From Candidatus Moraniibacteriota bacterium (GTDB lineage: Bacteria; Patescibacteriota; Minisyncoccia; Moranbacterales; UBA2206), in contig JAUSNP010000003.1 of NCBI GenBank assembly GCA_030645735.1, positions 103,411 through 167,410 on the forward strand: DNA of 64,000 nucleotides, given 5' to 3'. The translations under genes and the position numbers were made by a program. The notes under the pieces are model-generated. The model did not search any database, was not told the origin of the DNA, and saw only the letters and a list, made by a program, of their open reading frames with translations. Of the stretch, positions 587 to 60,170 are shown piece after piece (position 1 is the stretch's first letter; each line of letters begins with the position of its first letter).

Positions 587-1975
587 TTAGCTAACGGCGT
601 ACAATTGTTCCTTAATTAGGTTGATTTCGGAAATAAGCTTTTCATTGTATTCAAGTTCTTTAGAAATTTTGTCATGAGCATGGATGGCAGTGGTGTGATC
701 GCGCCCACCCAACTTCTCGCCGATACCAGGGTAGGAATATTGCAATTCACTGCGCATAAGATACATGGCGATTTGTCTGGGCTTAGCCACCTCTTTCTTG
801 CGATTTTTTATAATCAAATCAGCCGAGTTAATATCATAAAAAGAAGAAACAATATCAATGATGTGTTTGTGGGTGATACCTTTCTTTTTCCCACTAGCAA
901 TTAGCTCGGAAAGTAGGGTTTTAACATATTCCAAGGAGAGTTCGCGATTACTTAATTGCGCAGAAACAGAAACACGGTTAAGGGCGCCTTCAAGCTCGCG
1001 AATATTATTGGTGATGTTTTGGGCAATAAAACTCAAAGCCTCGATGGAAATGGCTAGGTTTTCGTCGGTCGCTTTTTTGCTTAAAATAGCCATTCTTGTC
1101 TCAAAATCAGCCTTAGAAACATCAGCAATCATACCACCCTCAAAGCGGGAGCGCAGGCGCTCTTCAAGGGTTGGAATAGCTTTTGGCGCTCTGTCACTGC
1201 TGAGTACAATTTGTCGATTCAGTTGATAGAGATAGTTAAAGATATGAAAAAACTCTTCCTGCGTCTTTTCTTTGCCAGAAAGAAATTGAACATCGTCAAT
1301 AATTAAAAGGTCAATTTTTTGGTAATGTTCTTTGAATTCATTGATTTTTTGGGTGCGAATCGAGTCAATAAGCTCATTAGTAAAGCGCTCTGAAGTGATA
1401 TACTTCACTTTTCTGGTTGGATCGTGCTTGAGGATTTCATTGCCAATAGATTGTAAAAGATGGGTTTTGCCCAAGCCCACCCCGCCATAAATGAAAAGTG
1501 GGTTATAGATCCGGCCAAGGTTTTGTGACACGGCATAACAAGCGGCGCGTGCCAACTCATTGCTCCCGCCAATAATAAAATTCTCGAAGGTATATTTGGG
1601 GTTTAGATTGTTTTCTTGGCTTATTTGAAAGGTTCTTTCAATAAATGGCTTGACGGGAACATGTTTTTTAGGAGGAATGATGGCGTCAATAGATTGTTCA
1701 TTTTTATTGCCGTCCTGGCCAGTTTCTATGGCGCAGGCGACCTCTTTGATGTCACTTTGAATGTTTCGTAGCGCGCGTAAGATGTAAATATTGTATTTAT
1801 TTTCCAACCATTCTTTAGCAAAACCATTTGGCACGCCGATAACCACCTTGCCATCAGTATTCGACTGAATTGAGGTATTTTTGAACCATGTGATGAAATT
1901 AGCTTTCGAGATTGAAAGCTCTATTTCCCCAAGTGCCGCTCGCCAAAGCTCTTCATTAGTCATAATTGGAAGCAA
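587..1975 (-). CDS. dnaA: Chromosomal replication initiator protein DnaA
   Basis: 462-aa ORF with AAA+ Walker A (GGVGLGKTHLLQSIGNE), Walker B (LLIIDDVQF) and a C-terminal DnaA-box-binding helix-turn-helix (HTTAIHAHDKI). Placed in the rpmH-dnaA-dnaN context. Confidence 0.95.
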   Translation of the reverse strand: MLPIMTNEELWRAALGEIELSISKANFITWFKNTSIQSNTDGKVVIGVPNGFAKEWLENKYNIYILRALRNIQSDIKEVACAIETGQDGNKNEQSIDAIIPPKKHVPVKPFIERTFQISQENNLNPKYTFENFIIGGSNELARAACYAVSQNLGRIYNPLFIYGGVGLGKTHLLQSIGNEILKHDPTRKVKYITSERFTNELIDSIRTQKINEFKEHYQKIDLLIIDDVQFLSGKEKTQEEFFHIFNYLYQLNRQIVLSSDRAPKAIPTLEERLRSRFEGGMIADVSKADFETRMAILSKKATDENLAISIEALSFIAQNITNNIRELEGALNRVSVSAQLSNRELSLEYVKTLLSELIASGKKKGITHKHIIDIVSSFYDINSADLIIKNRKKEVAKPRQIAMYLMRSELQYSYPGIGEKLGGRDHTTAIHAHDKISKELEYNEKLISEINLIKEQLYAVS

Positions 1976-2248
1976 AATTAAGTATAAGATGTTTGTAAAA
2001 TAAAGTATATCACGCAGAAAATCGAATGTCTAAGAAAAACGGGGATAAAGGTGTTGGTAACCTGTGGCTAACTTAATAAAAACCCCATATCTAATGTATA
2101 TTATGAAACTAAAAATAATGCAAGTCCCTAAGTACAAGCGTAGAGACGCGATTAATCACGTCTCTACGCACAAACATTGACTTTAGTGTGGATAATTGGT
2201 AAACTCCTAAGTAGCAAATAAAGGATAATTTATAAATCATATAATACT
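1976..2248. promoter_or_regulatory. oriC candidate / dnaA-rpmH divergent promoter region
   Basis: Perfect DnaA box TGTGGATAA at 2187..2195. Degenerate boxes at 2041..2049 and 2063..2071. AT-rich. Lies between divergent dnaA and rpmH. Confidence 0.45.
2140..2167. repeat. Hairpin with GTAGAGACG / CGTCTCTAC arms (member of a 3-copy hairpin family)
   Basis: GTAGAGACG-cgattaatca-CGTCTCTAC. The same 9-nt arms recur at 9150..9178 and 30061..30089. Confidence 0.4.
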
Positions 2249-2386
2249 ATGAGCCAGACATATCAACCATCAAGCACTCGACGAAAAAACAGACACGGTT
2301 TTCGTAAGAGAAACGAAACTGCCACAGGGCAAGCTGTGCTTAAAAGACGCCGAACAAAGGGCAGAAAGCGACTAACTACGGTTTAA
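2249..2386 (+). CDS. rpmH: 50S ribosomal protein L34
   Basis: 45-aa ORF, shorter than the ORF-track cutoff: [45 protein letters not shown]. Canonical L34 immediately upstream of rnpA. Confidence 0.9.
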
Positions 2387-2405
2387 TTGGCCTAAGTTTT
2401 TAGTC

Positions 2406-2768
2406 ATGTTACCCTTTAAGAATCGTCTAACCAGAAAAAAGGATCACGAACAAGTTCAAAAACTTGGTAATTTTGTGTCTCTGGATAATATTGCTATCAA
2501 GTTTATGCCCAATGATTTGCGCGATGTTCGCGTGGGCATTGTGGTGGGCTTGAAATATTCTAAAAAGGCGGTTGAGAGAAACCTAGTCAAAAGAATGATT
2601 CGAGAAATTGTCCAAGCTGAATTGAAAAATATGGAAAAGGGCGTGGATATCGTGATTATGGCGAGAAAGCGCGAAGAAGAAAAAACTCGTAACATCAATT
2701 TCAAGAAAAATATCCAAGAAGCGTTGACTCGCGGACAATTATTAATAAAAACCAAAGAAAAGGCTTAA
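2406..2768 (+). CDS. rnpA: Ribonuclease P protein component
   Basis: 120-aa basic protein following rpmH. FKNRLTRKKD...VRVGIVVGLKYSKKAVERNLVKRMIRE is RnpA-like. Confidence 0.85.
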   Translation: MLPFKNRLTRKKDHEQVQKLGNFVSLDNIAIKFMPNDLRDVRVGIVVGLKYSKKAVERNLVKRMIREIVQAELKNMEKGVDIVIMARKREEEKTRNINFKKNIQEALTRGQLLIKTKEKA

Positions 2769-2794
2769 ACAAAGCTTTGTAATAAAACAAAAAA

Positions 2795-19055: not shown

Positions 19056-19126
19056 ATATTTTGTTGGTGCAAAAGGAGCTAAGCTCCTGAAAAGTTATGG
19101 CCTGGCTGGAGCTTAGCTCCCAATAA

Positions 19127-19714: not shown

Positions 19715-19722
19715 TTAGCGTT

Positions 19723-19775
19723 TTGGACACTGGGTGTCTTGAATTCTTAATGCCACTTGGACACCCAGTGTCCAA
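19723..19775. repeat. 16-bp inverted repeat TTGGACACTGGGTGTC / GACACCCAGTGTCCAA (21-nt spacer); each arm is itself a GACACnnnGTGTC palindrome
   Basis: Perfect 16-bp arms at 19723..19738 and 19760..19775. Lies between the VirB4 stop and the next gene's start. A related pair is at 43481..43528. Confidence 0.5.
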
Positions 19776-19788
19776 GTGATAGTTCTGA

Positions 19789-21639
19789 CTATTCTTCATC
19801 CTCGAAATCTTTTTTAGCCTGTTCTATTTCCAATAACTGCGACGGGTCAGTGGTGATGATCTGATCTTCGCTATAGGACGCCACCACTTTGATGGCCACA
19901 TGCTTGGTGCCAGCGAAGAAGATGCCTTCTCCCACATTGCTTTCCAGTAACAAGAATTTTTCCTGATCAGTTAGATAGAATGTGTCAGCAATCACATCAA
20001 TCGCGGCGGGAGATTGTTTTAGAAGAAGCTGAATTGATGAGTTGGTCACAATTGGCTTGCCATAGCGCGAGGATAGAAAATCATTCACATCCTGCGTAAT
20101 GGTGGTAAGTCCAGTATAATATTTTCTGCATCTTTTCGCAATTCCAAAAAGGAAAGATGCGGCGTCGTCTGATTTCATCATCACCCAAGCTTCATCTACC
20201 AAAACCATTCGCTTTTTGACATTGGTGCGCATTTCATTCCAAATAAATTGCAAAACGATATACATAGCAATAGGTCGCAATTCATCTTCCATATCGCGAA
20301 TATTGAAGACCACTAGCTTGTTGTCAGCCTTGATGTTGGTGGTGTTGTTGAGAAATCCAGCAAAAATTCCTTCCGTATATTTTTCTAGGCGAATAGCCAA
20401 GTCCTCACTGCCATCCATGTTGCGCAAAACATTGTAGAGGTCTGACATAGTTGGATAGGATTCTTTGGGCAATTCATTGAAATTGGTTTGGCCGGTGATG
20501 TCGCGAATTGCATAAGTTTCGTGTACGGCTCTGTCCAAAATTGAATCTTCCTCTGGAGTGATATTTCCCAGCATCAAATGCAAAAGTCCAAGCAGTCCGG
20601 CAATGTTGTTGCGCAAAATGTCTTCCGGATCTTCATCTTCGGCAATTTTTGGCAAATCAAAGGGATTCAAATGATTGGTTGAATTCAGGGAAATCTTGAT
20701 GAAAGCTCCGCCAACTGTGTCACACAGATGCTTATATTCATTTTCTGGGTCAATGATGATGACATCGGTGCCAACCATCAAAGAGCGCAAAACTTCCAAT
20801 TTAACAGTATAACTTTTGCCACCTCCGGATTTGGCGAAAACCACCATATTGGCATTTTCCATTTTGAAGCGGTCAAAAAGAACCAAGCTATTATTATGTC
20901 GGTTGATGCCATAAAGAATGCCTTCATCATTGGAAAGGCTGGATGAAACAAAAGGAAATGTTGTAGAAAGCGGGGCAGAATTCATGTTGGTTCCAATATT
21001 CAACTCATCATTGGCCAGTGGAATAGTTGAATTGAAGCCTTGTTCCGTTTTGAAGATAGACGGCTTGATATAAACCAATTGTGCTTCCAGAATTGATTCG
21101 ATAGCGCGCGTAGTCTTGTCCAATTCTTTTTCATCTTGGCCATAGATAGTTATGTATAATCCAAAACGGAAAAACTTTTCTGTGCCTTGTTGCAGTTTGT
21201 CGCGCAACTCATCAATGTCTTGCATAGCGGTTTCCAAGGATGGATCGCGAATCATTCCATTTTCTTGCTCAATGTGGAGCTGGGATTGCACTTGGGTCGC
21301 GCTTTTTCGGAGTGTTTTCAAGATATCCACGGTTTCAATCGGGTGCACGAACATGGAAATGTCGATGGACATATCAATGTTGATGATGGGTGAAAACCAA
21401 TTGCTGTTCAAAAATCTAGGATAAGAGATGACAAAAATTGTGCGCGCCAAAGTCTCGCCCAATTGGATGGACTTGGGCAAAATCTTAATAGCGGCTGGCG
21501 CCAAAAGATCTTGCAATTTGGCCACACCCTCTTGATAGAATTTTTCTGACTCAATCACATCATCAAGAATCACCGCTTTTTTCGGTTGAGTTGAGGGATC
21601 TTTTTTGCTTAGGAAATCAAACATAATTGTCAGAACCAC
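19789..21639 (-). CDS. Type IV secretion ATPase VirB4/TrbE/CagE family
   Basis: Walker A (VVFAKSGGGKSYTVKLE) and Walker B (MVLVDEAWVMM). The C-terminal domain architecture is typical of VirB4. GTG start at 21639, with an alternative ATG at 21624. Confidence 0.8.
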   Translation of the reverse strand: MVLTIMFDFLSKKDPSTQPKKAVILDDVIESEKFYQEGVAKLQDLLAPAAIKILPKSIQLGETLARTIFVISYPRFLNSNWFSPIINIDMSIDISMFVHPIETVDILKTLRKSATQVQSQLHIEQENGMIRDPSLETAMQDIDELRDKLQQGTEKFFRFGLYITIYGQDEKELDKTTRAIESILEAQLVYIKPSIFKTEQGFNSTIPLANDELNIGTNMNSAPLSTTFPFVSSSLSNDEGILYGINRHNNSLVLFDRFKMENANMVVFAKSGGGKSYTVKLEVLRSLMVGTDVIIIDPENEYKHLCDTVGGAFIKISLNSTNHLNPFDLPKIAEDEDPEDILRNNIAGLLGLLHLMLGNITPEEDSILDRAVHETYAIRDITGQTNFNELPKESYPTMSDLYNVLRNMDGSEDLAIRLEKYTEGIFAGFLNNTTNIKADNKLVVFNIRDMEDELRPIAMYIVLQFIWNEMRTNVKKRMVLVDEAWVMMKSDDAASFLFGIAKRCRKYYTGLTTITQDVNDFLSSRYGKPIVTNSSIQLLLKQSPAAIDVIADTFYLTDQEKFLLLESNVGEGIFFAGTKHVAIKVVASYSEDQIITTDPSQLLEIEQAKKDFEDEE

Positions 21640-21745
21640 TGATTATCACATGAAAACACTGATTTCACATGATTGTGGATTATTTTTTATTTTAAATTTT
21701 TTCAGGTGGCGTCATGTGTACTCAGGTGTTAATCAGTGGTTCTGA
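21630..21745. repeat. 116-bp element bracketed by perfect 16-bp inverted repeats TCAGAACCACTGATTA ... TAATCAGTGGTTCTGA
   Basis: Arms at 21630..21645 and 21730..21745. The 84-bp core holds an internal direct repeat (TCACATGA x2). The element exactly fills the gap between the upstream ORF's stop (21747) and the VirB4 start. Confidence 0.5.
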
Positions 21746-21746
21746 T

Positions 21747-22427
21747 TTATTTCAATTCTAGTTCTTCAATATTCCCAATCTTTGTATCATTAAAAATATT
21801 CGGGTTGTAGGAGTTGTACATCAATTCGATCAATTCTTGAGTTTTGAGGGGTGTCATGCGAGCGCCAATGCCAGATAGTGAGGCGGAAATGTGGTCAACT
21901 CTTTGAAAGAGCTGGTTTTTGTAAGTTTCAAAGTCCTCTCTTTTGTGCGTGATGTCCTTTTTAGCACTGCTGAAAAGATTGCCCAAAAAACTGCGGTCTT
22001 GATTTTCAACTGGAGCAAATGGCACAATCACATAAAAACTTTTGTCCATAATGTTGGACACAGAAACTAATTGGCGGATGAAATTTTTGTATTCATAAAT
22101 CTGCAAACGCAAAAGCTCGCTGTCCTGCTCTTTTTCTTTTTTCTCGACATATTCAATATACTTATCAATATTCATTCGGCGCGAGCTGATCAAAATTTGA
22201 ATCGGAAAGTCCAAGGAATTCAAGAAATTTTGATACTGATTGATGATAGCTTCTTGTTCGTCGGATGATTTCAAATCAAAGTTGATGGCTGACACGGCTA
22301 AAACTGCTCGCAAGGCGCCACTTTTTAGCACAATTACATCTTCCTTGATTTCAGCCACATCCAAAAACTGCTGACTGGGATTAGTCGTGGTTTGTTTGGT
22401 TATCTTGGGTGAATTTAGTGTTTCCAT
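21747..22427 (-). CDS. Hypothetical protein (possibly a separately encoded VirB4 N-terminal-like domain or T4SS accessory protein)
   Basis: 226-aa cytoplasmic ORF directly upstream of VirB4. The combined length (226+616 aa) matches full-length VirB4 proteins. Confidence 0.4.
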   Translation of the reverse strand: METLNSPKITKQTTTNPSQQFLDVAEIKEDVIVLKSGALRAVLAVSAINFDLKSSDEQEAIINQYQNFLNSLDFPIQILISSRRMNIDKYIEYVEKKEKEQDSELLRLQIYEYKNFIRQLVSVSNIMDKSFYVIVPFAPVENQDRSFLGNLFSSAKKDITHKREDFETYKNQLFQRVDHISASLSGIGARMTPLKTQELIELMYNSYNPNIFNDTKIGNIEELELK

Positions 22428-22903
22428 TATCTTTTATTTATTTCTAATAATTTGGAAATATCTTCAATTTTCTGTCTGGAAATTTCTTTTTTTGGAACAA
22501 TGGCGGCAGCGGCAGCTTTTTTCTGCGCGGCTGTTTTTGGCTTGGCGGGCCTGGAAAAGGCTTTTATGTCAGCCACTCTTCTCCAGACATACATTTTGGG
22601 TTTGGTGAAAAATGAGACCGCCGACAAAAGAAACAGTATGAATGGTTGGCCGTGTGGCTTGAAAAAAGCCAGCGCACCAAAAATCATAGTCAAGATGACG
22701 GCAACGATAATAAACAAGGACATATCAAGGATGCTCCAAGCCACCAACAAAATCACGCCTTCCGCTCCCAACCAGCCCAATTGCTTGGCGGTCAACGGCC
22801 CGACGATCTTATCCTCTATGTCAATAAATTGTGGGACGTTGAACATGCCCATACTTTTTTTAAAATCACAAATTACAAAATACAAATAACAAACAAATTT
22901 CAA
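22427..22903 (-). CDS. Small two-TM membrane protein, VirB3/PrgI-like
   Basis: 158 aa with two adjacent TM helices following a short cytoplasmic N-terminus. Position upstream of VirB4 matches Gram-positive PrgI/VirB3. Confidence 0.35.
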   Translation of the reverse strand: MKFVCYLYFVICDFKKSMGMFNVPQFIDIEDKIVGPLTAKQLGWLGAEGVILLVAWSILDMSLFIIVAVILTMIFGALAFFKPHGQPFILFLLSAVSFFTKPKMYVWRRVADIKAFSRPAKPKTAAQKKAAAAAIVPKKEISRQKIEDISKLLEINKR

Positions 22904-22922
22904 ATTTCAAAATTAGAAAAAA

Positions 22923-24059
22923 CTATTGTTCTCGTAGATTTACTACATTCTTTCCTAGTGCTCTAGGGTCTGGTCTATTTTCAGCGGGTTGTGGTCTGGT
23001 CTGAGTTGCTGGCGTAATTCGGTATGGTTGATCTTGTGGCATGTCTTTTCTTTCATAAGCCAATTTCTGTGGTGAGGAAAAACTAATTTTATTAACCGGA
23101 GCATCAGTCAGGGTCGGTTTAGTCATTTGGTCATTCGTCATTGGTGCTTGATTCGAAATTCGAAATTCTGAATTTGAAATTTGTCTATCTTGCTTAGGTT
23201 CTTCAACCGAACTAGTAACACTAAATATAATTTTCTTCGAAACCTTATCCACCGTGACCACGCTTTTCTCATCAAACGCTTTCAAAATATATGACAAATT
23301 TTCTCGATCACTTGAGCTCAAGCCCTGCGCATTTTTGCTGTGGAACAGATAATTGCTACGAACCATGGGGCTATGTGTTTCTTGACCAAGAGTGTGAGTA
23401 TAATCAGCCAGCCAATTTTTGATTGATGGTCTAACTGGTTCTGGAAAGCTCATGATCTTAATGCGGTTGGAAGTTATGACTTGTTCACCCAGTTCGGGAA
23501 ATTGTTTCATGGCATCAGCAAGTGACGCTTGCATCAAATCGGCTAGTGCTGTAGTTGGTTGGAATTTTTCTGGACGTGTGTTTATGCTGGATGGATTGGC
23601 ACTGATGTATATTGGGAAACGCAAAATTTGCATAACCGTATCAGTTAATCCGGAAATAGTTACGGATAATAAATAATCATACATACGGAAAATACGCATC
23701 AATCTTCGCTGATTAATTTTATCTAATTTTTGTGTTTCACTATCAGTTGAAACAAATTGAAAAAATGTATCAGAAGTGCGCTCAATATTATTATATGTTT
23801 TACGATAGCGATCAATCCATTGATTCACAGAAGCTGGTCCAACCATTTGTTCATTTGACCTGGCAGCAAGATTTAATGCTTTACGAAGATTTTCTCTAGC
23901 TGGGTAGGGAAGAAAAACAAATCTCGTGATCATCTCACCTTCTAAAAAAGTTTCATCTTCCAATGCTTCTAACAGATTGTTTTTTAGCACAGCAATGCAT
24001 TCCTCATTCGGGATATCTGCAAATTTTTTTATTTTTTCTTGAAATGAAAGTAAGGGCAT
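22923..24059 (-). CDS. Hypothetical cytoplasmic protein of T4SS-like cluster
   Basis: 378-aa ORF, no TM, Pro/Gln-rich C-terminal tail. Confidence 0.45.
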   Translation of the reverse strand: MPLLSFQEKIKKFADIPNEECIAVLKNNLLEALEDETFLEGEMITRFVFLPYPARENLRKALNLAARSNEQMVGPASVNQWIDRYRKTYNNIERTSDTFFQFVSTDSETQKLDKINQRRLMRIFRMYDYLLSVTISGLTDTVMQILRFPIYISANPSSINTRPEKFQPTTALADLMQASLADAMKQFPELGEQVITSNRIKIMSFPEPVRPSIKNWLADYTHTLGQETHSPMVRSNYLFHSKNAQGLSSSDRENLSYILKAFDEKSVVTVDKVSKKIIFSVTSSVEEPKQDRQISNSEFRISNQAPMTNDQMTKPTLTDAPVNKISFSSPQKLAYERKDMPQDQPYRITPATQTRPQPAENRPDPRALGKNVVNLREQ

Positions 24060-24090
24060 ATTTATGAAAGATTAAATTTTAGTTCTCTTT

Positions 24091-26181
24091 TTATGTTTTT
24101 GGTTTTGGCTTTGCTAAGTTTTCCGATGTTGTTATAAAACTATCAATATTCTCCGCTTGTTCTGGGAATTTCTTTTTGAGTTCTTTGAGTTTTGCCGTAA
24201 TAACTGGGTCGTTAGAAGGTGCCCTGAAGTCAGTGCGGGATCTCTTAAGTTGTTCAATTACAGCTGGATTAACCATTTGACTAAAAAACATTTCGCCCAG
24301 TTCGGTAAGTCCTTCTAACTCCATCTTTTTTGTTTCAGCATTCCACTTGCGTTTGTAGATTGCGTCAGGATGCAATTTTTTCATCAACTCTTGTGGTTCG
24401 ATATTCTTTAACTTACCAAGAGCTGCTTCAGCATGCTCCCGACGCGTGTTACGTGCAAAGGTGCCATCCTTATTGATCTTAATAGCTCCATACAATCCAG
24501 CATTGCCACTGCTGAGGCCAATCTCCCCAAGCTGATACATTTGCCTATAGGCCTCTTGGTCACTTAGTCCAGTTGCTTTTAGATCTTGAAGCATTTCAAA
24601 TGCTGTTCCATCCTGAGCGATACCATCTTTTTCATTTTCCACCGTTCCAAAAGCATTAAGATCTTTTTGTTTGAAATGCATAAGGTCATTTGTGTCATTG
24701 GATTTGGCTAGTGTACGCTGGGCGGCAATAGTTTGATATTGAGCTACAAGACCTTTGCGACCCTTATTCTTTTCTATGAGTTCAATTAATTCTTCCGAAC
24801 TGTGGTAAATTAGAGATTGTTCTTTTTGCTTTTCAGCTATTTGACCTTCAATGGCAAATTGTTCATAGTGAGTTTCTTCACCACCAAAAATCTTATTCAA
24901 TCTATCATTCCATGCCCCAGATCCAACAGCCAACTTATCTTTTTCTGCTCGATCAGTAGTTTCTTTCCAAGCTTTCATGAATTGTCTCGGACTAACTTTC
25001 CATCTAGCTAAGGTATTTCGATCAATGGCTTTAAGTCCTGCTATGCTACTCTTTTTCATTAGACCACCTGTCCATTTGGACAATCCTTGCACCATAGAGC
25101 CACCTTCTATGCCCATCTTTTGGGCGATGCCCATGGCCATCCAGAGGACGACGATTGGAATGGACATGTTGGCCATGGCGGAAAGGGGGTCGTTACTTTG
25201 AGCTAGTTGAACAGAGCTACCAACGGCTTCCATTAGCGCGACAGAGAGGCTCAAAGCTAGAACCATGATTGGTCCAAAAAGGGCATACTTGAAAAGATAA
25301 TCCCACCAACCAAAGTCTTTGCCGGCGATGTTGCCTACAAATGCCACTGGTGAGAAAATGATGAGGGCTGCCAAAGCCACCATACGAATGAGAAACATCA
25401 GAGCCAGTGCTAAGAATGTCATAGCTAAAAGAAAAGAGAAAATGACTGCCGCGAGAAGCTGTGAGATGGAAGCATTCTTGGCTTCCAGAATTATTTTCAT
25501 AGCTGATCCGCGAGTGATGTTGGTAAAAAAAATAGTTGGATCTGCCGCTGTATCGGGCATCAACTGCGTGAGCAGAGTGTACATCAGAGAATTGGAAGCA
25601 TCAATGATGACACGCGTGATGGGAAAACTGAAATTAACTAGCAGTGCCATCAGAACAATAGTCAAAATGATTTTTTTCTCGCCATATTTGCCACCAATTT
25701 GAAAGATGATGGAAAAAGCTGAATAAAGTAAAAATAAGATGAAGCCGATATTTAGGACATCGCGAATTTGTCCCCAAGCGGTATAGAGAACTTCGTTATT
25801 AAGCACAGCGCTGAGCCTGTCCACATCCACCGCTACTCCGAAAATTCCCGCAGAAACTCCCAAAAGCATGGCGTTAAATTCCAGAACAAGACTGAGTGGG
25901 CAAGTAATTAATACTTTAAAATCGCCAGTTAAAATACTACTGGAACAAGCAGCATTATCATCTGTATTGGCAGCGTTGCCATCGCCCTTGAAAGCATTTT
26001 GTACATAGTTTCGTACATTTGGATTTGTGGCAGCTCCGATTATCATGGGAATAGTTTGAAGGACTGCTTTGGCGGGTTGTGGATAAAACACAAAGCTAGC
26101 AAAGATTATAAAAATTGCTAGGAATACGCTGGATATTTTATTGTGGCTTTGGTTTTTCAAATTTTTGAATATTTCCAACAA
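24091..26181 (-). CDS. VirB6/TrbL-like polytopic membrane protein with long C-terminal soluble extension
   Basis: 696 aa. The N-terminal ~350 aa carry at least 6 TM helices; the C-terminal ~300 aa are hydrophilic. Same size and topology class as TrbL/VirB6. Confidence 0.5.
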   Translation of the reverse strand: MLEIFKNLKNQSHNKISSVFLAIFIIFASFVFYPQPAKAVLQTIPMIIGAATNPNVRNYVQNAFKGDGNAANTDDNAACSSSILTGDFKVLITCPLSLVLEFNAMLLGVSAGIFGVAVDVDRLSAVLNNEVLYTAWGQIRDVLNIGFILFLLYSAFSIIFQIGGKYGEKKIILTIVLMALLVNFSFPITRVIIDASNSLMYTLLTQLMPDTAADPTIFFTNITRGSAMKIILEAKNASISQLLAAVIFSFLLAMTFLALALMFLIRMVALAALIIFSPVAFVGNIAGKDFGWWDYLFKYALFGPIMVLALSLSVALMEAVGSSVQLAQSNDPLSAMANMSIPIVVLWMAMGIAQKMGIEGGSMVQGLSKWTGGLMKKSSIAGLKAIDRNTLARWKVSPRQFMKAWKETTDRAEKDKLAVGSGAWNDRLNKIFGGEETHYEQFAIEGQIAEKQKEQSLIYHSSEELIELIEKNKGRKGLVAQYQTIAAQRTLAKSNDTNDLMHFKQKDLNAFGTVENEKDGIAQDGTAFEMLQDLKATGLSDQEAYRQMYQLGEIGLSSGNAGLYGAIKINKDGTFARNTRREHAEAALGKLKNIEPQELMKKLHPDAIYKRKWNAETKKMELEGLTELGEMFFSQMVNPAVIEQLKRSRTDFRAPSNDPVITAKLKELKKKFPEQAENIDSFITTSENLAKPKPKT

Positions 26182-53025: not shown

Positions 53026-53057
53026 GTAATTTCATAATCAATTGATTATGAAATTAC
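53026..53057. promoter_or_regulatory. 32-bp perfect palindrome GTAATTTCATAATCAA|TTGATTATGAAATTAC upstream of gyrA
   Basis: Exact dyad symmetry centred on CAATTG, about 100 nt upstream of the gyrA start. Confidence 0.5.
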
Positions 53058-53159: not shown

Positions 53160-55592
53160 ATGGAAATTGGAAATATTCATGCACGAGAAATAACCAAGGA
53201 AATGTCACAGTCCTATTTGGACTATGCGATGAGTGTCATTGTTTCACGTGCTTTGCCAGACGTGCGCGATGGATTAAAGCCGGTGCACAGAAGAATTTTA
53301 TATTCCATGTGGAACACTGGTTTGCGTTCAACTGCTAAATTCCGAAAATCAGCGACAGTTGTCGGAGAGGTTTTAGGAAAGTATCATCCACATGGCGATG
53401 TGGCTGTGTATGATTCCATGGTGCGTATGGCACAAGACTTTTCATTGCGTTATCCAATGGTGCGAGGCCAAGGAAACTTTGGTTCAATGGATGGTGACAG
53501 TGCGGCTGCCTATCGTTATACTGAAGCCAAGCTTTCCGCGATGGCCGAAGAAATGTTGAGCGACATTGAAAAAAATACTGTGGACTTTGTGCCAAACTTC
53601 GATGGTCAGCACAAAGAGCCCACCGTTTTACCGGCTAATCTGCCTCAACTCCTTTTGAATGGTTCAATGGGAATCGCAGTTGGAATGGCGACGAATGTGC
53701 CACCACACAATCTTTCTGAATTGATTGACGGAATTTCTCATTTGATTGATCATCCCAATGCTACAATTGAAGACCTGACCCAATTTATCCAAGGACCTGA
53801 TTTTCCAACAGGCGGAATCATTTATAACAAAAAAGACATCATCGAAGCTTATAAAACTGGGCGGGGCAAAATTTTGACTCGTGCCAAAGCGGACATTCTA
53901 GAGACCAAGGCTGGAGCTTTCCAAATCGTCATCACTGAAATGACTTATGCCACCAACAAAGCCACAATGATTGAAAAGATGGCTGACTTGGTGCATGAAG
54001 GCAAGATTGTGGGTATCAAAGACATTCGCGATGAATCCGACAAAGATGGTGTCCGTCTCGTGATTGATTTGAAAAAAGATGCCTATCCACAAAAGGTTTT
54101 GAACAAGCTTTTCTCTTTGACTGACTTGCAAAAGAATTTCAATGTGAACATGTTGGCACTGGTAGATGGAATTGAACCAACCGTATTAAACTTGAAAGCT
54201 ATTTTGGAATACTATATCGCCCATCGAAAGATTGTTATCACTCGCAAAACTCAATTTGAATTGGATCGCGCCAAGGAAAGAGCGCATATCTTGGAAGGTT
54301 TGAAAATTGCTTTGGATCACATTGATGCCGTCATCAAAACTATTCGAGAATCTCAAACCAAAGAAATCGCTCATGCCAATTTGATGAAGAAATTCAAATT
54401 GTCTGATCGACAAACTACTGCCATCTTGGAGATGCGCTTGCAAACACTGGCTGGTTTGGAAAGAAAGAAAATTGAAGATGAATTGAAAGAAAAATTGGCG
54501 CTCATCAAAGAATTGGAAGCTATTTTGAAGAGTGTGGTGAAAATTTTGGCGATTGTGAAGGACGAATTGTTGCGGGTGAAAGAAAAATTTGGTGATGAGC
54601 GACGAACTAAGGTGGTGAAATCGGGTGTGGGTGAATTCAAACAAGAAGATTTGATTCCCAATGAAGAAGCCATCATCACGATCACTGAACAAGGTTACAT
54701 CAAACGCATGGATCCAACCGTATACAAAGTGCAAAAGCGCGGCGGCAAGGGTGTGATTGGTGCAGTGACCAAAGAAGAAGACGGAATCAAGAAAGTTTTG
54801 GCAGTTATGACGCATGATGATCTTCTCTTCTTCACTGATAGTGGAAAAGTTTTCCAAACCAAGGCTTATGAAATTCCCCCATCCTCTCGCATTGCCAAAG
54901 GTCAATCAGTGGTGAATTTCTTGCAACTTTCACAAGAAGAAACAGTGACTGCCATCATTCCTTTCAACAAAGAAGATGGTTTCAAATATTTCTTGATGAC
55001 CACTGAGATGGGAACGGTGAAGAAAACTCCAATGGAAGACTTTGACAATGTGCGTCGATCAGGTTTGATTGCTATCAATCTGACCAAGGGTGACACCTTG
55101 AAATGGGTTGAAGCCACTACTGGTGAAGATGAAATCACTGTCACCACTTCCAAAGGTCAAGCCATTCGCTTCAAAGAAAAAGATGTGCGCCCAATGGGAA
55201 GAAGTGCGACAGGTGTGCGTGGCATCAAATTGAGAAAAGATGACAAAGTGGTTGGTATGGACGCCGTGTTCAAGAATCAGAAAGGCAATCAATTGCTAAT
55301 TATCACTGAGAATGGTTATGGCAAACGTTCAGACTTGAAAGCCTACAAGATTCAGAAACGTGGTGGCTCTGGTATCAAGACAGCCAATGTTACTAGTAAA
55401 ACTGGATCAGTAGTAGGTGCCAACATCGTGAATGTGGACGAAATGGAAGAAGATTTGATCTTGAGTTCTGAAAAAGGTCAGATCATCCGAATTCCATTGA
55501 ACAGTGTCCCCGTTCTCGGACGAGCCACTCAAGGAGTTCGCGTCATGCGTCCATCCACCGGTGACAAAGTTTCTGCAACAACTGTGCTATAA
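53160..55592 (+). CDS. gyrA: DNA gyrase subunit A
   Basis: [28 protein letters not shown]-terminus with active-site Tyr region. GyrA-box QKRGGKGV in the C-terminal beta-pinwheel. Confidence 0.9.
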
Positions 55593-56095: not shown

Positions 56096-56542
56096 TTATA
56101 GTTTTTCAAGCTCTCTTTTGAGTATCGCAAGTCTTTGAAGCTCTGTTTTGTATTTCTCTCTAGATGTATTATCTCGGTTTTCTGGTGTGAGTTCTCGCGG
56201 TTGAATATCTTCGTAGTCTAAAATTTCCTGGATTCTAACAAGTGCAGATATTTTTTTAATATCCCTTAGGGCAGGATCGGTCATGCGTCGTATACTCTGG
56301 GCGATTACCTCAAATTCTTCACGTGCAGCTTTCAATTTTTCAAAATTAGTTACAATATTTGCGATTGTTGGAGCACCAGTATTGATTATTTCTCCACCAG
56401 ATTTACTTATTCTAGCTGCCTCAGCCTTTCCGTCTTGTTTTGATTTTGAGTCCCGAAGATCTTCTTGTTTATGTAAAATTTCGAATTCTAAACCAGCGCC
56501 ATCACTGTATGTTGTTGGAATTTTTTCTGCTGGAAAACCCAT
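56096..56542 (-). CDS. Hypothetical protein
   Basis: 148-aa hydrophilic ORF. Confidence 0.45.
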   Translation of the reverse strand: MGFPAEKIPTTYSDGAGLEFEILHKQEDLRDSKSKQDGKAEAARISKSGGEIINTGAPTIANIVTNFEKLKAAREEFEVIAQSIRRMTDPALRDIKKISALVRIQEILDYEDIQPRELTPENRDNTSREKYKTELQRLAILKRELEKL

Positions 56543-56636
56543 AATATTAGTCTTTAGCGAATTATATAATCATTATAGCATATCTAAACGCAAAAATCAA
56601 GGACTAGCTATATTATAATATAAAATAATGATATTG

Positions 56637-58313
56637 TCAAATAGAAATCAGAAATGCTAGAGCCATCCATAATATCATCTGTCCTTGCTGAATGTCCCAG
56701 AGGTAATGATCAAAAAGCATGATAAATGTGAGACCAAGGAATAGTCCTTGAAATAGCCTAATTACAATCGACGGAAATGTTCCACGTGGAACATTTTTGA
56801 TCGGCTCATATGTTTCACAATGAGAATTGTTCCACGTGGAACATTTTATGCTCGATTCTGGCGCAACTCTCTTTTTTTCAAATTGTTCCACGTGGAACAA
56901 TTTCCACAACATCCAGATAAATAATATCAGTCCAACCAATCCCAACTCACTCCAGATTAGCAAAAAGACATTGTGCACTGGCTGAAATTGCCAGTCAGAA
57001 AGTGCTTGGTTTGTGTTATTGCGCATATTGGCCACGAATTGGCCTGATCCAATGCCAAATATTGGGTTCTGCGAAATTGTTCCACGTGAAACATTTAGGT
57101 ATAGTATACGTTCATCGAGTGACTTGAAAAAAAGTGAGTTGATGTCAGGCTGGATAATAACTATCAACGCGACGAATATTCCTAGCAGGATGATTAATTT
57201 ACGACCAATATGTTCCACGTGGAACAATTTTGTTGCGTAAGTCTTGACACTTGTCCAGTATGCATAGCCAATAGCTATAATTAGGCCTAGAATAGCTGAT
57301 TTTGAGAATGTTAGGATTATAGCAACTATTTGGATTGCTAAAATTATTGAATATGCTCGATCATGGATTGCTTTGGGTATGATGCTTGAAATTGTTCCAC
57401 CCGCCTCGACTCGTGGAGACGACCACTCGTCGACGCGAGGCGGGCGCGGAACATTTTCGGTGGGTTTGTATGTTTCACAGTGAGAATTGTTCCACCCGCC
57501 TCGACTCGCAGAGACTGCTTGTCGATGCGAGGCGGGCGTGGAACATTTTATGTCTAACTTGGAAGTTTTATTTTGTTCCACCCGTCTCGACTCGTGGAGA
57601 CGACCACTCGTCGACGCGAGGCGGGCGTGGAACATTTTTCGGTATACCAATGTTAGTATAATTGAGAATAACAAGAAACCACCTAGAATGTTGGGATGTG
57701 GAAATAAGCCATAAGCGCGGATTATTTTCTCTTGGTTGAAGATGAGTTTGGCTACGCCAGCTATTTCTGGTGAAATTAGGCTTTCTTTTAGCCAAAAAAG
57801 TCCAATTGAATGTTGGACAAGGATTTGCCAAGTGCCAACAATGACCTGGATTAGACTAATTGAGATAAGTATTCTAAAAGTATTACGTAAAATTGTTCCA
57901 CGTGGAACAATTTTGATTATTAAATATAAGAACAAGATATAATATTCAAGTAATTTGATAGATCTGAATAAAGTAATGTTCTGGTTGTCTGACCAAGATA
58001 TTGAGATAAATGACCAAACCACGAGTAGTAAAGGTAGTAAAAATGTTCCACGTGGAACATTAGCAGTTCTTATTATTGACAAAAGAGACTGTTTATTGCA
58101 TAATATCGAAATAAGCCAGCTAATCGCGATTGCGAGCAAAAAGAGGTCACTGATGTATAGATAGATGCCCGTATATTCGTTAAATTGTTCATTGATGGGA
58201 TAAAAAAATAAAACCTTACGCACAGAGAGGGTGAAGGTGGTTAAAAAGCCATAAAAAAACCAAACATCAGGTTGTGTTTTGAAATCATTCCAAATTTTTC
58301 GTAGCAGATTCAT
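56637..58313 (-). CDS. O-antigen ligase (Wzy_C)-like membrane protein interrupted in-frame by multiple palindromic-element insertions
   Basis: 558-aa continuous ORF. The C-terminal half has a Wzy_C-like loop (NPIFGIGSGQFVANMRNN...HNVFLLIWSELGLVGLILFIW). The palindromes are translated in three frames as VPRGT, CSTWN and FHVE(Q/H). Confidence 0.6.
   Translation of the reverse strand: MNLLRKIWNDFKTQPDVWFFYGFLTTFTLSVRKVLFFYPINEQFNEYTGIYLYISDLFLLAIAISWLISILCNKQSLLSIIRTANVPRGTFLLPLLLVVWSFISISWSDNQNITLFRSIKLLEYYILFLYLIIKIVPRGTILRNTFRILISISLIQVIVGTWQILVQHSIGLFWLKESLISPEIAGVAKLIFNQEKIIRAYGLFPHPNILGGFLLFSIILTLVYRKMFHARLASTSGRLHESRRVEQNKTSKLDIKCSTPASHRQAVSASRGGWNNSHCETYKPTENVPRPPRVDEWSSPRVEAGGTISSIIPKAIHDRAYSIILAIQIVAIILTFSKSAILGLIIAIGYAYWTSVKTYATKLFHVEHIGRKLIILLGIFVALIVIIQPDINSLFFKSLDERILYLNVSRGTISQNPIFGIGSGQFVANMRNNTNQALSDWQFQPVHNVFLLIWSELGLVGLILFIWMLWKLFHVEQFEKKRVAPESSIKCSTWNNSHCETYEPIKNVPRGTFPSIVIRLFQGLFLGLTFIMLFDHYLWDIQQGQMILWMALAFLISI
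56778..58059. repeat. Cluster of 10 copies of the 16-bp perfect palindrome TGTTCCACGTGGAACA (7 simple, 3 split by a 45-nt GC-rich palindromic insert)
   Basis: Simple copies at 56778, 56828, 56884, 57078 (variant TGTTCCACGTGAAACA), 57211, 57904 and 58044. Expanded copies TGTTCCAC-CCGCCTCGACTCGTGGAGACGACCACTCGTCGACGCGAGGCGGGC-GTGGAACA at 57393..57453, 57488..57545 and 57574..57634. A composite unit (palindrome-TTTT..TATGTTTCACAATGAGAA-palindrome) is duplicated at 56778..56843 and 57449..57545. Confidence 0.8.
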
Positions 58314-58418
58314 AGTATTTCTTAGTGTTATTATACATTAAATAATATTGATTGACTAAGATTTTATAATTGGTATGATTGATAGGTTGCGAGCCACGGC
58401 GCTCGCGATTGAAGTGGT

Positions 58419-58491
58419 GGGGATATAGCTCATCTGGTAGAGCGCTTCCATGGCATGGAAGAGGTGTGGGGTTCGATTCCCCATATCTCCA
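58419..58491 (+). tRNA. tRNA-Ala (anticodon GGC)
   Basis: GGGGATA acceptor with the G3:U70 identity pair, anticodon loop ATGGCAT, T-arm TGGGGTTCGATTCCCCA. No CCA encoded. Confidence 0.9.
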
Positions 58492-58582
58492 CAAATAGAA
58501 AACTTTGTGTTTACATAACCATTTTCTTTTGTTAGAATGGTTTGTTGATGATATTGTGTATATAGAGATAAATTTAATCATT

Positions 58583-58654
58583 GCCTTCATAGCTCAATGG
58601 ATAGAGCAAATCCGTCCTAAGGATGAGATGTAGGTTCGATTCCTACTGAGGGTA
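58583..58654 (+). tRNA. tRNA-Arg (anticodon CCT)
   Basis: GCCTTCA acceptor, D-arm GCTCAATGGATAGAGC, anticodon loop GTCCTAA, T-arm GTAGGTTCGATTCCTAC. No CCA encoded. Confidence 0.85.
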
Positions 58655-58664
58655 CTAAAAAAAT

Positions 58665-60170
58665 ATGATTACTAAAATTCCCAAACAAGTAATCGAGGTC
58701 TTGCAGAAAATTGAAGAACAAAATTTTGAAGCGTACATTGTAGGTGGCTGTGTGCGTGATTTGATTATGGATAAAATTCCCAATGACTGGGATGTGACAA
58801 CCAACGCGACGCCGGAAAAAATTCAAGAAATTTTTCCAGACAATTTTTATGAAAACAATTTTGGTACCGTCGGAGTGAAGGTGGAAAAATTCACTGAAGG
58901 TGAAGGCGAACATGATGTAGTGGAGGTGACGACATATCGTATTGAATCAAAATATTCTGATAAGCGCAGGCCGGATGAAGTTGCGTTTGCGAAAACTTTG
59001 CAAGAGGATTTGTCGCGAAGAGATTTCACGATGAATGCACTAGCGTTACGCATAACGCATAACGTGGAACGTGAAACGCAAATCAAAAAGCGATCCACGG
59101 TCCACGATCCACGTTTTGAGATCGTTGATTTGTATGATGGGCAAAAAGATATTGAACAAAAAATAATTCGCACCGTGGGTAATGCGGAAGAAAGATTTGA
59201 TGAGGATGCTTTGCGCATGATGCGAGCGATTCGTTTTCATTCACAATTGGGTTTTGCAATTGAGGAAAAAACTTTGCAGGCCATCAAAAAATTTGCGGGA
59301 CACATGCAACACATTTCGCAAGAGAGAATCAAAGATGAATTGGTGAAAATCATTTTGTCAGACAATCCTGCGGAAGGTATTGAGATGTTGCATGAGACTG
59401 GCCTGCTACAATTTGTGATTCCGGAATTGGAAAGTGGTGTGGGCATCGCGCAAAATCGTCATCACATTCACACGATCTATAAACATTGTGTTTTGGCGTT
59501 GCAATTTTGTCCGTCGAAAAAAATGGAAGTGCGCTTGGCTTCACTGTTGCATGACATTGCCAAACCGCAAACCAAACGCGGTGAAGGAGAGTTTGCAACA
59601 TTCTACAATCATGATCATGTTGGTGCGCGCGTGGCCAGAAAAATTTTGCAACGTTTGCGATTTTCAAATGAGATTATTGAAAAAGTTTCGATGCTGGTGG
59701 ACAATCATATGTTCTATTATAATCCGGAAGAAGTGGGTGAATCATCAGTGCGACGTCTGATTCAAAAAGTTGGTTTGGAGAATATGAAAGATTTGATTGA
59801 TGTGCGCATTGCCGATCGTCTGGGATCTGGCACACCGAAAGCCAAGCCATATAAATTGCGCCACTTGGAATATATGATCGACAAATTGTCGCAAGACGCG
59901 GTGTCAGTCAAAATGTTGAAAATAAACGGTCGGGATTTGATGCAAGATTTGGGCATGACTCCCGGACCAAAAATTGGTGCTATTTTGGATGTGCTACTTT
60001 CCGAAGTGATTGAAGACGCCGCTAAAAATGAAAAAGAATTTTTGCTCACTCGTGCCAAAGAACTCGACCAAGAAGACTTGCAAAAATTGCGTGAGATGGC
60101 CAAAGAGAAAATTGAAGAAAAGAAAGAGGAGGATGACAAAGAAATTCGGGATAAACATTGGGTTAAATAA
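58665..60170 (+). CDS. cca: CCA-adding tRNA nucleotidyltransferase with HD domain
   Basis: GGCVRDLIMDKIPNDWDVTT (polymerase beta nucleotidyltransferase motif), RRDFTMNALAL, C-terminal HD (HDIAKP...DNHMF). Confidence 0.8.
   Translation: MITKIPKQVIEVLQKIEEQNFEAYIVGGCVRDLIMDKIPNDWDVTTNATPEKIQEIFPDNFYENNFGTVGVKVEKFTEGEGEHDVVEVTTYRIESKYSDKRRPDEVAFAKTLQEDLSRRDFTMNALALRITHNVERETQIKKRSTVHDPRFEIVDLYDGQKDIEQKIIRTVGNAEERFDEDALRMMRAIRFHSQLGFAIEEKTLQAIKKFAGHMQHISQERIKDELVKIILSDNPAEGIEMLHETGLLQFVIPELESGVGIAQNRHHIHTIYKHCVLALQFCPSKKMEVRLASLLHDIAKPQTKRGEGEFATFYNHDHVGARVARKILQRLRFSNEIIEKVSMLVDNHMFYYNPEEVGESSVRRLIQKVGLENMKDLIDVRIADRLGSGTPKAKPYKLRHLEYMIDKLSQDAVSVKMLKINGRDLMQDLGMTPGPKIGAILDVLLSEVIEDAAKNEKEFLLTRAKELDQEDLQKLREMAKEKIEEKKEEDDKEIRDKHWVK

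What the first reader, a model, noticed from the sequence alone, without database searches (positions are those of the whole stretch)
56637..58313. Stop-free 16-bp palindrome (TGTTCCACGTGGAACA) inserted 10 times, in all three reading frames, within one O-antigen-ligase-like ORF
Seen directly: seven simple and three expanded copies within 1.3 kb. The expanded copies carry a 45-nt GC-rich, itself palindromic, insert CCGCCTCGACTCGTGGAGACGACCACTCGTCGACGCGAGGCGGGC.

The 558-aa ORF stays open, which is very unlikely by chance in this AT-rich genome. The palindrome is translated as VPRGT, CSTWN(N) or FHVE depending on insertion phase.

Being palindromic and stop-free, it is open in all six frames. 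That is the property of Rickettsia palindromic elements (RPEs), which colonise coding regions.

A composite unit (palindrome-spacer-palindrome) is also duplicated. No copy was found elsewhere in the 64 kb, so proliferation is local.

Three explanations are possible:
- an RPE-like selfish element;
- a recombination or phase-variation substrate in a surface-glycan gene, since copies in different frames allow frame-switching deletions;
- a dense array of binding sites for a CACGTG-recognising protein.

Any of these would be novel for this lineage.
Basis: partly seen in the sequence, partly recalled or inferred. Interest (0 to 1): 0.85.

Follow-up and report, generated by a model that had tools for sequence, protein, structure and literature searches.

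The report
parS centromere array inside one gene
The repeated 16-bp palindrome is parS, the standard bacterial chromosome-partition (centromere) site bound by ParB. It is packed ten times into the loop-coding parts of one membrane-protein gene of a Moranbacteria (CPR) genome, and three copies are split by a separate small GC-rich hairpin element, so this is a known kind of site in an unusually dense, gene-embedded and conserved arrangement.

Summary
There are seven simple and three split copies of TGTTCCACGTGGAACA in 1.28 kb, all inside one intact 558-aa Wzy_C-family ORF, read in all three frames, with none elsewhere in the window.

The palindrome is not a new element. It is the canonical chromosomal parS site, identical to Pseudomonas parS2/3. 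It occurs in more than 120 genomes of many phyla, often beside parB. The array lies about 55 kb from dnaA/oriC, and Moranbacteria encode canonical ParA and ParB.

The arrangement is new. In at least 107 of the 120 best homologs, and in every homolog gene with parS-type peptides whose DNA I read, this same gene carries the parS sites (usually 7-12). They sit in indel-rich loops, with synonymous positions frozen. No parS was found in the gene flanks or near parAB. A lineage whose protein lacks the motifs (P0025) keeps only decayed relics at the same positions.

The 42-45-nt inserts are a different thing. They belong to a widespread GC-rich hairpin family of 39, 42 or 45 nt that sits in frame in housekeeping genes of CPR-like contigs.

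Verdict: a new variant of a known kind. ParB binding itself is inferred.

The parts
56637..58313 (-). Host gene: intact 558-aa Wzy_C (O-antigen ligase/polymerase-like) polytopic membrane protein
   Evidence: ORF; Pfam PF04932 E=3.1e-16; more than 500 homologs; conserved blocks and invariant R402/H447
56778..56793 (.). parS, perfect; translated VPRGT (aa 508-512); part of the simple F-C-V module
56811..56818 (.). Half-parS TGTTTCAC in the module spacer
56828..56843 (.). parS, perfect; translated CSTWN (aa 491-495)
56884..56899 (.). parS, perfect (24-bp palindrome with flanks); translated FHVE (aa 473-476)
57078..57093 (.). parS with one mismatch, still within consensus TGTTNCACGTGNAACA; translated VSRGT in the conserved Wzy_C loop (slot present in 42/60 homologs)
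57211..57226 (.). parS, perfect; translated FHVE (aa 364-367)
57393..57453 (.). Split parS: half TGTTCCAC + 45-nt GC-rich hairpin element (57401-57445) + half GCGGAACA; peptide VPRPPRVDEWSSPRVEAGGT
57471..57478 (.). Half-parS TGTTTCAC in the spacer of the expanded module
57488..57545 (.). Split parS: halves + 42-nt hairpin element (57496-57537), apical stem GCAG/CTGC; peptide CSTPASHRQAVSASRGGWN
57574..57634 (.). Split parS: halves + 45-nt hairpin element (57582-57626); peptide FHARLASTSGRLHESRRVE
57894..57909 (.). parS, perfect (26-bp palindrome with flanks); translated VPRGT (aa 136-140)
58044..58059 (.). parS, perfect; translated VPRGT (aa 86-90)
587..2794 (-). Context: dnaA (587-1975) and the flanking DnaA-box-rich region, the probable oriC, about 55 kb from the array
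   Evidence: Pfam; 7 of 25 DnaA-box-like hits lie in the first 2.5 kb; monotonic GC skew

Best explanation
The 16-bp palindromes are chromosomal parS sites, the centromere-like loading sites of the partition protein ParB.

Shown:
- Seven intact sites and three interrupted ones form an origin-proximal cluster, about 55 kb from dnaA, written into the loop-coding segments of a Wzy_C membrane-protein gene.
- The same gene hosts the parS array across Moranbacteria/Parcubacteria relatives.
- The sites are held constant at the DNA level, whatever the reading frame.
- The lineage encodes canonical ParA and ParB with the GERRFQA CTP-binding motif and the HTH.

Inferred:
- ParB dimers load at each intact site as CTP-dependent clamps and build one partition complex over this locus. 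ParA then segregates it, and it probably recruits SMC.
- The many closely spaced sites (41-56 bp apart within modules) make a strong, redundant centromere, in the manner of F-plasmid sopC.
- The sites sit in a gene because these genomes have almost no intergenic space and this protein's inter-helix loops tolerate insertions.
- The array grew by duplication and gene conversion of a three-site module (FHVE...CSTWN...VPRGT).

The three 'expanded' copies are parS sites interrupted at the dyad centre by an unrelated, dispersed 39/42/45-nt GC-rich hairpin element. This probably inactivates them as full sites and leaves half-sites. The insert probably spread between neighbouring parS copies through their shared flanks.
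For: Identity with parS:
- The 16-mer equals P. aeruginosa parS2/parS3 and the P. putida consensus. It fits TGTTNCACGTGAAACA.
- AWTGTTCCACGTGGAACAWT occurs in more than 120 genome loci of many phyla, where I estimated about 2 by chance. In 30+ of those loci a Spo0J homolog lies within a few kb.

Position:
- dnaA, yidC, jag and DnaA boxes lie at 0.1-4 kb of the window.

ParB in the lineage:
- ParB/Spo0J proteins named Candidatus Moranbacteria / Moraniibacteriota / Parcubacteria carry the LGRGL, GERRFQA and HTH motifs, with ParA adjacent.

Conservation of the arrangement:
- 107/120 homologs carry 1-11 parS-encoded peptides.
- At the DNA level there are 12, 12, 10, 8, 8, 7 and 7 sites in the genes of L121, L122, L066, L126, L156, L125 and L127. 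None lies in up to 10 kb of flanks.
- In about 0.8 Mb of unrelated CPR-like loci, parS occurs only in three loci, all homologs of this gene.
- No parS lies within 3-17 kb of parAB.

DNA-level selection:
- All 13 VPRGT peptides are encoded by GTTCCACGTGGAACA. All five codons are four-fold degenerate at the third position, and the expected frequency of that codon combination is about 0.003.
- All three frames are used.
- Homologs whose proteins lack the motifs show decayed relics at the same slots.

Loops:
- Sites fall in low-occupancy alignment slots between conserved blocks. They also fall in low-pLDDT inter-helix segments of the AlphaFold model.

The insert is a separate element:
- The insert core was searched without requiring parS flanks. 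It gave 126 copies in 120 metagenome loci, and only 3 of them are flanked by parS halves.
- Lengths are 39/42/45 nt in 86 of 97 unique copies.
- It lies in frame in GyrA/B, UvrA/B, SecA, Mfd, TopA and others.
Against: - ParB binding is not tested.
- No parB gene lies in the 64-kb window, and the rest of the genome cannot be read here. So ParB in this very genome, and the absence of other parS clusters, are assumed from relatives.
- Genome size is unknown, so 'origin-proximal' rests on 55 kb being small relative to a typical genome of about 1 Mb.
- The homolog search picks candidates by shared 5-mers. This favours proteins containing VPRGT/CSTWN/FHVE, so the 107/120 fraction is inflated. The independent DNA scans do not share this bias.
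- Frozen synonymous sites could also come from recent copying rather than purifying selection.
- Why this particular gene hosts the array is unexplained.
Confidence: 0.85

Rival explanations
1. The 16-bp palindrome (with its A/T flanks) is itself a selfish RPE-like or MITE-like element that colonises coding sequence.
For: It is palindromic, stop-free and present in three frames. It sits in indel-rich loops, and multi-site modules are duplicated between loops. Nested parS-in-parS forms exist in homologs.
Against: It is confined to one gene. There are 0 copies in the other 62 kb of the window, 0 in the 10-kb flanks of six homolog loci, and 0 in about 0.8 Mb of other CPR-like DNA. The sequence is exactly the pan-bacterial ParB site. 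No target-site duplication or terminal repeats beyond the site itself were seen.
Confidence: 0.05
2. The copies are a recombination or phase-variation substrate that switches the surface-glycan gene on and off by deletion or inversion between copies.
For: There are many identical palindromes in different frames within a surface-polysaccharide gene. This rests on inference only. No tool result supports it.
Against: The ORF is intact in all 120 listed homologs, with the same conserved blocks. No truncated or rearranged variants were seen among the loci fetched. 16-bp repeats are short for RecA-dependent exchange.
Confidence: 0.03
3. The sites serve another CACGTG-recognising factor, such as a transcription factor, or the restriction-modification enzyme of a CACGTG system, rather than ParB.
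For: The CACGTG core is a known restriction site (Eco72I is used to score parS mutations in PMC4368675).
Against: Conservation covers all 16 bp plus flanks, not just the hexamer. Six other CACGTG in the window lack the flanks. The 16-mer is the ParB site in tested species.
Confidence: 0.03
4. It is an ordinary protein repeat selected at the peptide level.
For: The peptides recur in homologs.
Against: One DNA word gives three unrelated peptides. Synonymous positions are invariant. The segments are low-confidence loops.
Confidence: 0.01

Closest known systems
Chromosomal parS clusters (P. aeruginosa parS1-4, M. xanthus 22 sites, C. glutamicum, B. subtilis)
   Same: Same 16-bp palindrome (identical to P. 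aeruginosa parS2/3). Multiple sites in the ori domain. Intragenic location is common: 9 of 10 P. aeruginosa sites are in coding sequence, PMC4368675.
   Different: Here 10 sites (12 in relatives) lie in about 1.3 kb of a single ORF. They are read in three frames in protein loops. The host gene is conserved as the carrier across a CPR order. The sites are not next to parAB. I found no description of this in the searched library.
F-plasmid sopC and similar plasmid centromeres built of many closely spaced ParB-type sites
   Same: sopC is an array of 16-bp inverted-repeat binding sites at 43-bp spacing, 12 sites in all (PMC3597684). Here module spacings are 41, 50 and 56 bp.
   Different: sopC is non-coding, strictly tandem and uses a different sequence. 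Here the units are interspersed with conserved coding blocks.
Rickettsia palindromic elements (RPE; own knowledge: Ogata et al. 2000)
   Same: Palindromic DNA tolerated in frame inside protein-coding genes. This fits the 39-45-nt GC-rich hairpin found in GyrA/B, UvrA/B, SecA and others.
   Different: RPEs are about 100-150 bp and AT-biased (own knowledge). No sequence relation was tested. The 16-mer itself is not dispersed, so it is not RPE-like.
REP/BIME elements and MITEs
   Same: Short hairpin-forming repeats present in many copies.
   Different: The hairpin family has no target-site duplication and no terminal inverted repeats beyond its own stem. It is largely intragenic, and no Rfam family matches it.

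Membership tests
Chromosomal parS (ParB/Spo0J centromere site) | 16-bp palindrome matching TGTTNCACGTGAAACA / TGTTCCACGTGGAACA | tested here: met
   Six perfect sites plus one single-mismatch site. Identical to published P. aeruginosa and P. putida parS.
Chromosomal parS (ParB/Spo0J centromere site) | [quoted passage not shown] | tested here: met
   dnaA at 587-1975 with clustered DnaA boxes. The array lies about 55 kb away. Caveat: genome size is unknown.
Chromosomal parS (ParB/Spo0J centromere site) | A cognate canonical ParB (ParB_N with GERRxRA, HTH_ParB) is encoded by the organism | tested here: inconclusive
   Not in the 64-kb window. Present in Moranbacteria/Moraniibacteriota/Parcubacteria relatives with all motifs. 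The rest of this genome cannot be read.
Chromosomal parS (ParB/Spo0J centromere site) | Bound by ParB, with CTP-dependent loading and spreading | not testable with these tools
   Needs EMSA or ChIP-seq.
RPE-like in-frame selfish palindromic element (applied to the 16-mer) | Copies dispersed through many unrelated genes of the genome | tested here: not met
   All copies lie in one gene. None lies in flanks or in about 0.8 Mb of other CPR-like DNA.
RPE-like in-frame selfish palindromic element (applied to the 42-45-nt insert) | Dispersed copies inside unrelated ORFs, with the reading frame preserved | tested here: met
   126 copies in 120 loci. 54% lie in stop-free stretches of at least 600 nt. 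Lengths are 39/42/45 nt. There is a clean 13-aa insertion in GyrA.
RPE-like in-frame selfish palindromic element (applied to the 42-45-nt insert) | Sequence homology to Rickettsia RPE families | not tested
The length and GC content differ from what I recall of RPEs.
MITE | Terminal inverted repeats plus target-site duplication | tested here: not met
   For 125 hairpin copies, a 2-nt direct flank repeat occurs in 7, a 3-nt repeat in 2 and a 4-nt repeat in 0. The flanks are not complementary above chance.
Wzy_C / O-antigen ligase family (host gene) | Pfam PF04932 above the gathering score; polytopic membrane protein with conserved loop Arg/His | tested here: met
   59.9 bits against a cutoff of 31.7. 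Invariant R402 and H447. Helical bundle model.

The most novel reading that the evidence does not exclude
In Moranbacteria the chromosome's centromere has been housed inside this one polytopic membrane-protein gene because the location is functional, not incidental. One possibility is that co-transcriptional membrane insertion of the nascent Wzy_C protein (transertion) tethers the ParB-parS complex to the membrane. Another is that ParB occupancy couples expression of the surface-glycan enzyme to the replication and segregation cycle. A corollary is that the hairpin-split sites are regulated sites, with cruciform extrusion re-joining the two halves, rather than dead ones.
Probability: 0.1. Interest if true: 0.85.

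Novelty: new variant of a known kind. Interest (0 to 1): 0.55.

Why it matters
- It gives a first concrete picture of centromere organisation in an uncultured CPR lineage: a record-dense parS array about 55 kb from oriC and away from parAB.
- It is a clean natural case of dual coding. One 16-bp protein-binding word is kept invariant while being translated in three frames within the loops of a conserved membrane protein.
- It offers a marker gene for locating the ori domain in fragmented Moranbacteria MAGs.
- The side result is a 39/42/45-nt GC-rich hairpin family sitting in frame in essential genes of CPR-like genomes and invading the centromere sites. It may be an undescribed analogue of Rickettsia palindromic elements. 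It would explain some of the odd insertions seen in CPR proteins.

Tried and rejected
- Other TGTTCCAC half-sites in the window (27567, 30899, 32625, 34079) have no partner half or hairpin. I treat them as chance.
- Rfam, at a permissive E-value over 56500-58700, returned only the two tRNAs and spurious miRNA-type hairpin hits.
- Looking up the contig of the exact protein failed: it is not on record. The rest of the 233-kb contig could not be read.
- Literature searches for parS in CPR/Patescibacteria, for parS with O-antigen ligase, for the hairpin core sequence, and for RPE-like elements in CPR found nothing relevant.
- A viral-contig scan for the hairpin gave 0 hits.
- The idea that the hairpin targets palindrome centres in general is rejected. 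Flanks of 125 copies are not complementary above chance.
- The idea that hairpin orientation is forced by stop codons is rejected. The insert is stop-free in all six frames (read directly from the sequence).
- Covariation in the outer stem could not be assessed, because my search pattern fixed those bases.
- Livny et al. 2007 (PMC2168934) is not held in the library.
Full report
**1. The observation**

The sequence is as described.
- Six perfect copies of TGTTCCACGTGGAACA start at 56778, 56828, 56884, 57211, 57894 and 58044. One single-mismatch copy (TGTTCCACGTGAAACA) starts at 57078.
- About 0.03 matches with up to 2 mismatches are expected by chance in the window.
- Several copies extend to perfect palindromes of 20-26 bp through A/T flanks.
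- In three further copies the two 8-bp halves are separated by a GC-rich insert of 45, 42 and 45 nt: 57393-57453, 57488-57545 and 57574-57634.
- All ten lie in one open 558-aa ORF on the minus strand (56637-58313). That ORF is a bona fide Wzy_C family gene, Pfam E=3e-16.
- From the coordinates, the simple copies are read as V(P/S)RGT four times, FHVE twice and CSTWN once. The split copies use one frame each.
- The only other near-match in the 64 kb is a 2-mismatch hit inside gyrA at 53301.
- The duplicated composite unit is real: 56785-56835 versus 57445-57495, 84% identical.

**2. What the palindrome is**

A scan of one genome per species for AWTGTTCCACGTGGAACAWT stopped at its 120-locus limit. 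I had estimated about 2 hits by chance. The hits came from Bacteroidota, Acidobacteriota, Nitrospirota, Firmicutes, Proteobacteria, Planctomycetota and CPR. In more than 30 of these loci a Spo0J/ParB homolog lies within a few kb.

The literature search for the exact 16-mer returned only ParABS papers.
- It is parS2/parS3 of P. aeruginosa (PMC4368675).
- It is the P. putida consensus and fits the general consensus TGTTNCACGTGAAACA (PMC7022226).
- It is used as the parS probe in PMC3597684.

So the 'novel palindrome' is the canonical chromosomal centromere site bound by ParB. Intragenic parS sites are already known: nine of ten in P. aeruginosa lie in coding sequence.

**3. Context in the window**

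dnaA lies at 587-1975, followed by yidC and jag. Seven of 25 DnaA-box-like matches fall in the first 2.5 kb. GC skew is monotonic across the window.

The array is therefore about 55 kb from the probable oriC. That is inside the usual 'ori domain' for any genome of ordinary size (rule quoted). It sits between gyrA (53160-55592) and two tRNAs plus the CCA-adding enzyme.

No ParB homolog is encoded in the window. The lineage has one, however.
- A hairpin-bearing CPR-like contig (L141) encodes Soj and ParB.
- Its homologs include proteins that NCBI names ParB/RepB/Spo0J of Candidatus Moranbacteria, Moraniibacteriota and Parcubacteria.
- These carry the N-terminal LGRGL motif, the GERRFQA CTP-binding box and the HTH, with ParA adjacent.

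**4. The arrangement is conserved, and that is the new part**

The exact protein is annotated from a Candidatus Moranbacteria MAG.
- Of the 120 best homologs (39-64% identity), 107 contain 1-11 parS-encoded peptides.
- The word-based candidate filter of that search favours such proteins, so the fraction is biased. Two independent DNA routes agree with it.
- First, the genome scan for parS pulled out two CPR loci with many copies (L072, L066). Both turned out to be homologs of this gene.
- Second, among about 0.8 Mb of loci fetched for an unrelated reason (the hairpin), parS with up to 1 mismatch occurs only in L156, L168 and L246. All three are homologs of this gene.
- At the DNA level the homolog genes carry 12 (L121), 12 plus one split (L122), 10 (L066), 8 (L126), 8 (L156), 7 (L125) and 7 (L127) sites.
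- None lies in up to 10 kb of flank on either side.
- The synteny CCA-adding enzyme / Wzy_C / gyrA is kept.
- No parS with up to 2 mismatches lies within 16.8 kb around parAB of a Moraniibacteriota genome, nor in the two other parB loci.

**5. Selection acts on the DNA word**
- All 13 VPRGT peptides in seven genes are encoded by exactly GTT CCA CGT GGA ACA. Yet all five codons are four-fold degenerate at the third position. Background usage predicts that combination at about 0.003.
- The same word yields three unrelated peptides.
- In a 60-sequence alignment the sites fall in about eleven recurrent, gap-rich slots between fully conserved blocks. A three-site module (FHVE...CSTWN...VPRGT) recurs in up to three different loops of one protein.
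- Homologs without the exact motifs still show decayed relics at the same slots: NVSRRT, KTFRMEH and LFRVKQ in P0025, and a degenerate nested form in P0016. The P0025 locus has only one weak site in 21 kb.
- In the AlphaFold model (mean pLDDT 60, so only coarse use) the site-encoded peptides coincide with low-confidence inter-helix segments: 73-85, 136-138, 230-312, 362-366 and 478-511.
- One site, the VSRGT slot at 57078, lies in the conserved Wzy_C loop and is present in 42 of 60 homologs. It may be the ancestral seed (inference).

**6. The 'expanded' copies**

The insert is a separate entity. I searched metagenomes for its core (GCCTCGCGTCGAC-N10-22-GAGTCGAGGCGG) without requiring parS flanks.
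- The scan hit its 120-locus limit and gave 126 copies. Only three (L156 twice, L168) are flanked by parS halves, and these are again in the Wzy_C gene.
- The host contigs are AT-rich (median GC 0.395).
- 54% of copies lie in stop-free stretches of at least 600 nt, against 59% for random positions.
- The ORFs are recognisably GyrB, GyrA, UvrA, UvrB, SecA, Mfd, PheT, DnaE, LeuRS, TopA and RNR (my reading of the translations).
- The unit CC[N]GCC...GGCGGG is 39, 42 or 45 nt in 86 of 97 unique copies.
- In GyrA it appears as a clean 13-aa insertion relative to the window's own GyrA.
- There is no target-site duplication, and the flanks are not palindromic.
- No Rfam family, no paper and no viral contig matched.
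- The copies fold as strong hairpins: -19 to -23 kcal/mol as DNA, z-scores -4 to -7.
- The apical stem differs compensatorily between copies: GTGG/CCAC, GCGG/CCGC, GCAG/CTGC.
- In the window, GC-rich hairpins of this kind occur only in the three parS sites.

All three sites of one F-C-V module carry the insert. Composites of the same form recur in six homologs (L122, L124, L126, L127, L156, L168). In these the extra GC lies on the same side with respect to the gene, while the core is inverted in L168. This suggests spread between parS copies by duplication or by gene conversion through the shared halves (inference). Homologs also show nested forms: half-site, GC arm, a whole parS, GC arm, half-site. 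I cannot explain these mechanistically.

**7. How it most likely works**

Shown: a dense cluster of canonical parS words near oriC, conserved at the DNA level, in a lineage with canonical ParAB.

Inferred:
- ParB-CTP clamps load at the seven intact sites and form the partition complex, which ParA moves and SMC uses.
- The many sites at 41-56-bp spacing act as a redundant high-avidity centromere, like sopC (12 sites at 43 bp).
- The three split sites are probably inactive as full sites. They still provide GTTCCAC half-sites, which some ParBs bind.
- Placement in a gene follows from the compactness of these genomes and the tolerance of this protein's loops.

**8. Rivals**
- A selfish 16-mer fails on dispersal.
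- Phase variation has no support: ORFs are intact everywhere.
- Another CACGTG-binding factor does not explain conservation across all 16 bp.
- A protein repeat is excluded by the codon data.

**9. Verdict**

The motif is already known. The gene-embedded, conserved, three-frame array, and its invasion by an in-frame hairpin family, make it a new variant of a known kind. The main open points are direct ParB binding, the remainder of this genome, and why this particular gene hosts the array.

Noticed in passing
L128-L247 (e.g. L149 GyrB, L200/L223 UvrA, L203 SecA, L208 Mfd, L181 GyrA, L210 TopA); in the window only 57401-57445, 57496-57537 and 57582-57626: A widespread family of 39/42/45-nt GC-rich hairpins (CC[N]GCCTCGCGTCGAC..loop..GAGTCGAGGCGGG). 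They are inserted in frame in essential housekeeping genes of AT-rich, CPR-like contigs and give peptides such as PASTRGDASSTRGG or PPRVDE..RVEAGG. They have no TSD and no Rfam or literature match. This may be an undescribed RPE analogue.
   Followed up: partly
L125 10451-10582, 11128-11259, 11589-11650; L127 1475-1533, 1792-1938; L126 10255-10313; L122 10270-10305: Nested palindromes in homolog genes: parS half, GC-rich arm, a complete parS with A/T flanks, partial complementary arm, parS half. Other GC hairpins (GCCTGCCTGC...GCAGGCAGG) are also capped by parS halves. The mechanism is unknown.
   Followed up: partly
window 53301-53316 (inside gyrA): TATTCCATGTGGAACA, a 2-mismatch parS-like word with one perfect half-site, 3.4 kb from the array. 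It could be chance (about 0.03 such matches expected per window) or a weak site.
   Followed up: no
window 53026-53057: A perfect 32-bp palindrome, GTAATTTCATAATCAATTGATTATGAAATTAC, about 100 bp upstream of the gyrA start. It is the longest perfect palindrome in the window and could be an operator or a terminator.
   Followed up: no
window 7244-8524 and 8508-9683: Two further Wzy_C-family paralogs sit in a polysaccharide-synthesis cluster next to the origin region, and neither has any parS. Only the gyrA-adjacent paralog hosts the array.
   Followed up: partly
L123 10001-11440 (P0025) and P0016/P0033/P0043: Orthologs whose proteins lack the parS motifs keep degenerate relics at the same loop positions. 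This implies that the centromere was lost or relocated in some lineages.
   Followed up: partly
L005 4091, 4472, 5409; L028 140, 706, 1180, 1509: In other CPR lineages (a Patescibacteria MAG and Kerfeldbacteria), perfect parS sites form looser clusters of 3-4 within 1.3-1.4 kb. They are mostly outside long ORFs, and one lies beside a tRNA gene.
   Followed up: partly
L149 (GyrB ORF): The hairpin-bearing GyrB also appears to contain an intein-like insertion (C...HN-flanked segment of about 300 aa). This is my reading of the translation only.
   Followed up: no
window 11262-26181: A run of large minus-strand ORFs without Pfam matches surrounds a TraG/VirB4-like P-loop ATPase (19789-21639) and an SLT transglycosylase (14339-15304). 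It looks like a type IV secretion or pilus-like cluster.
   Followed up: no
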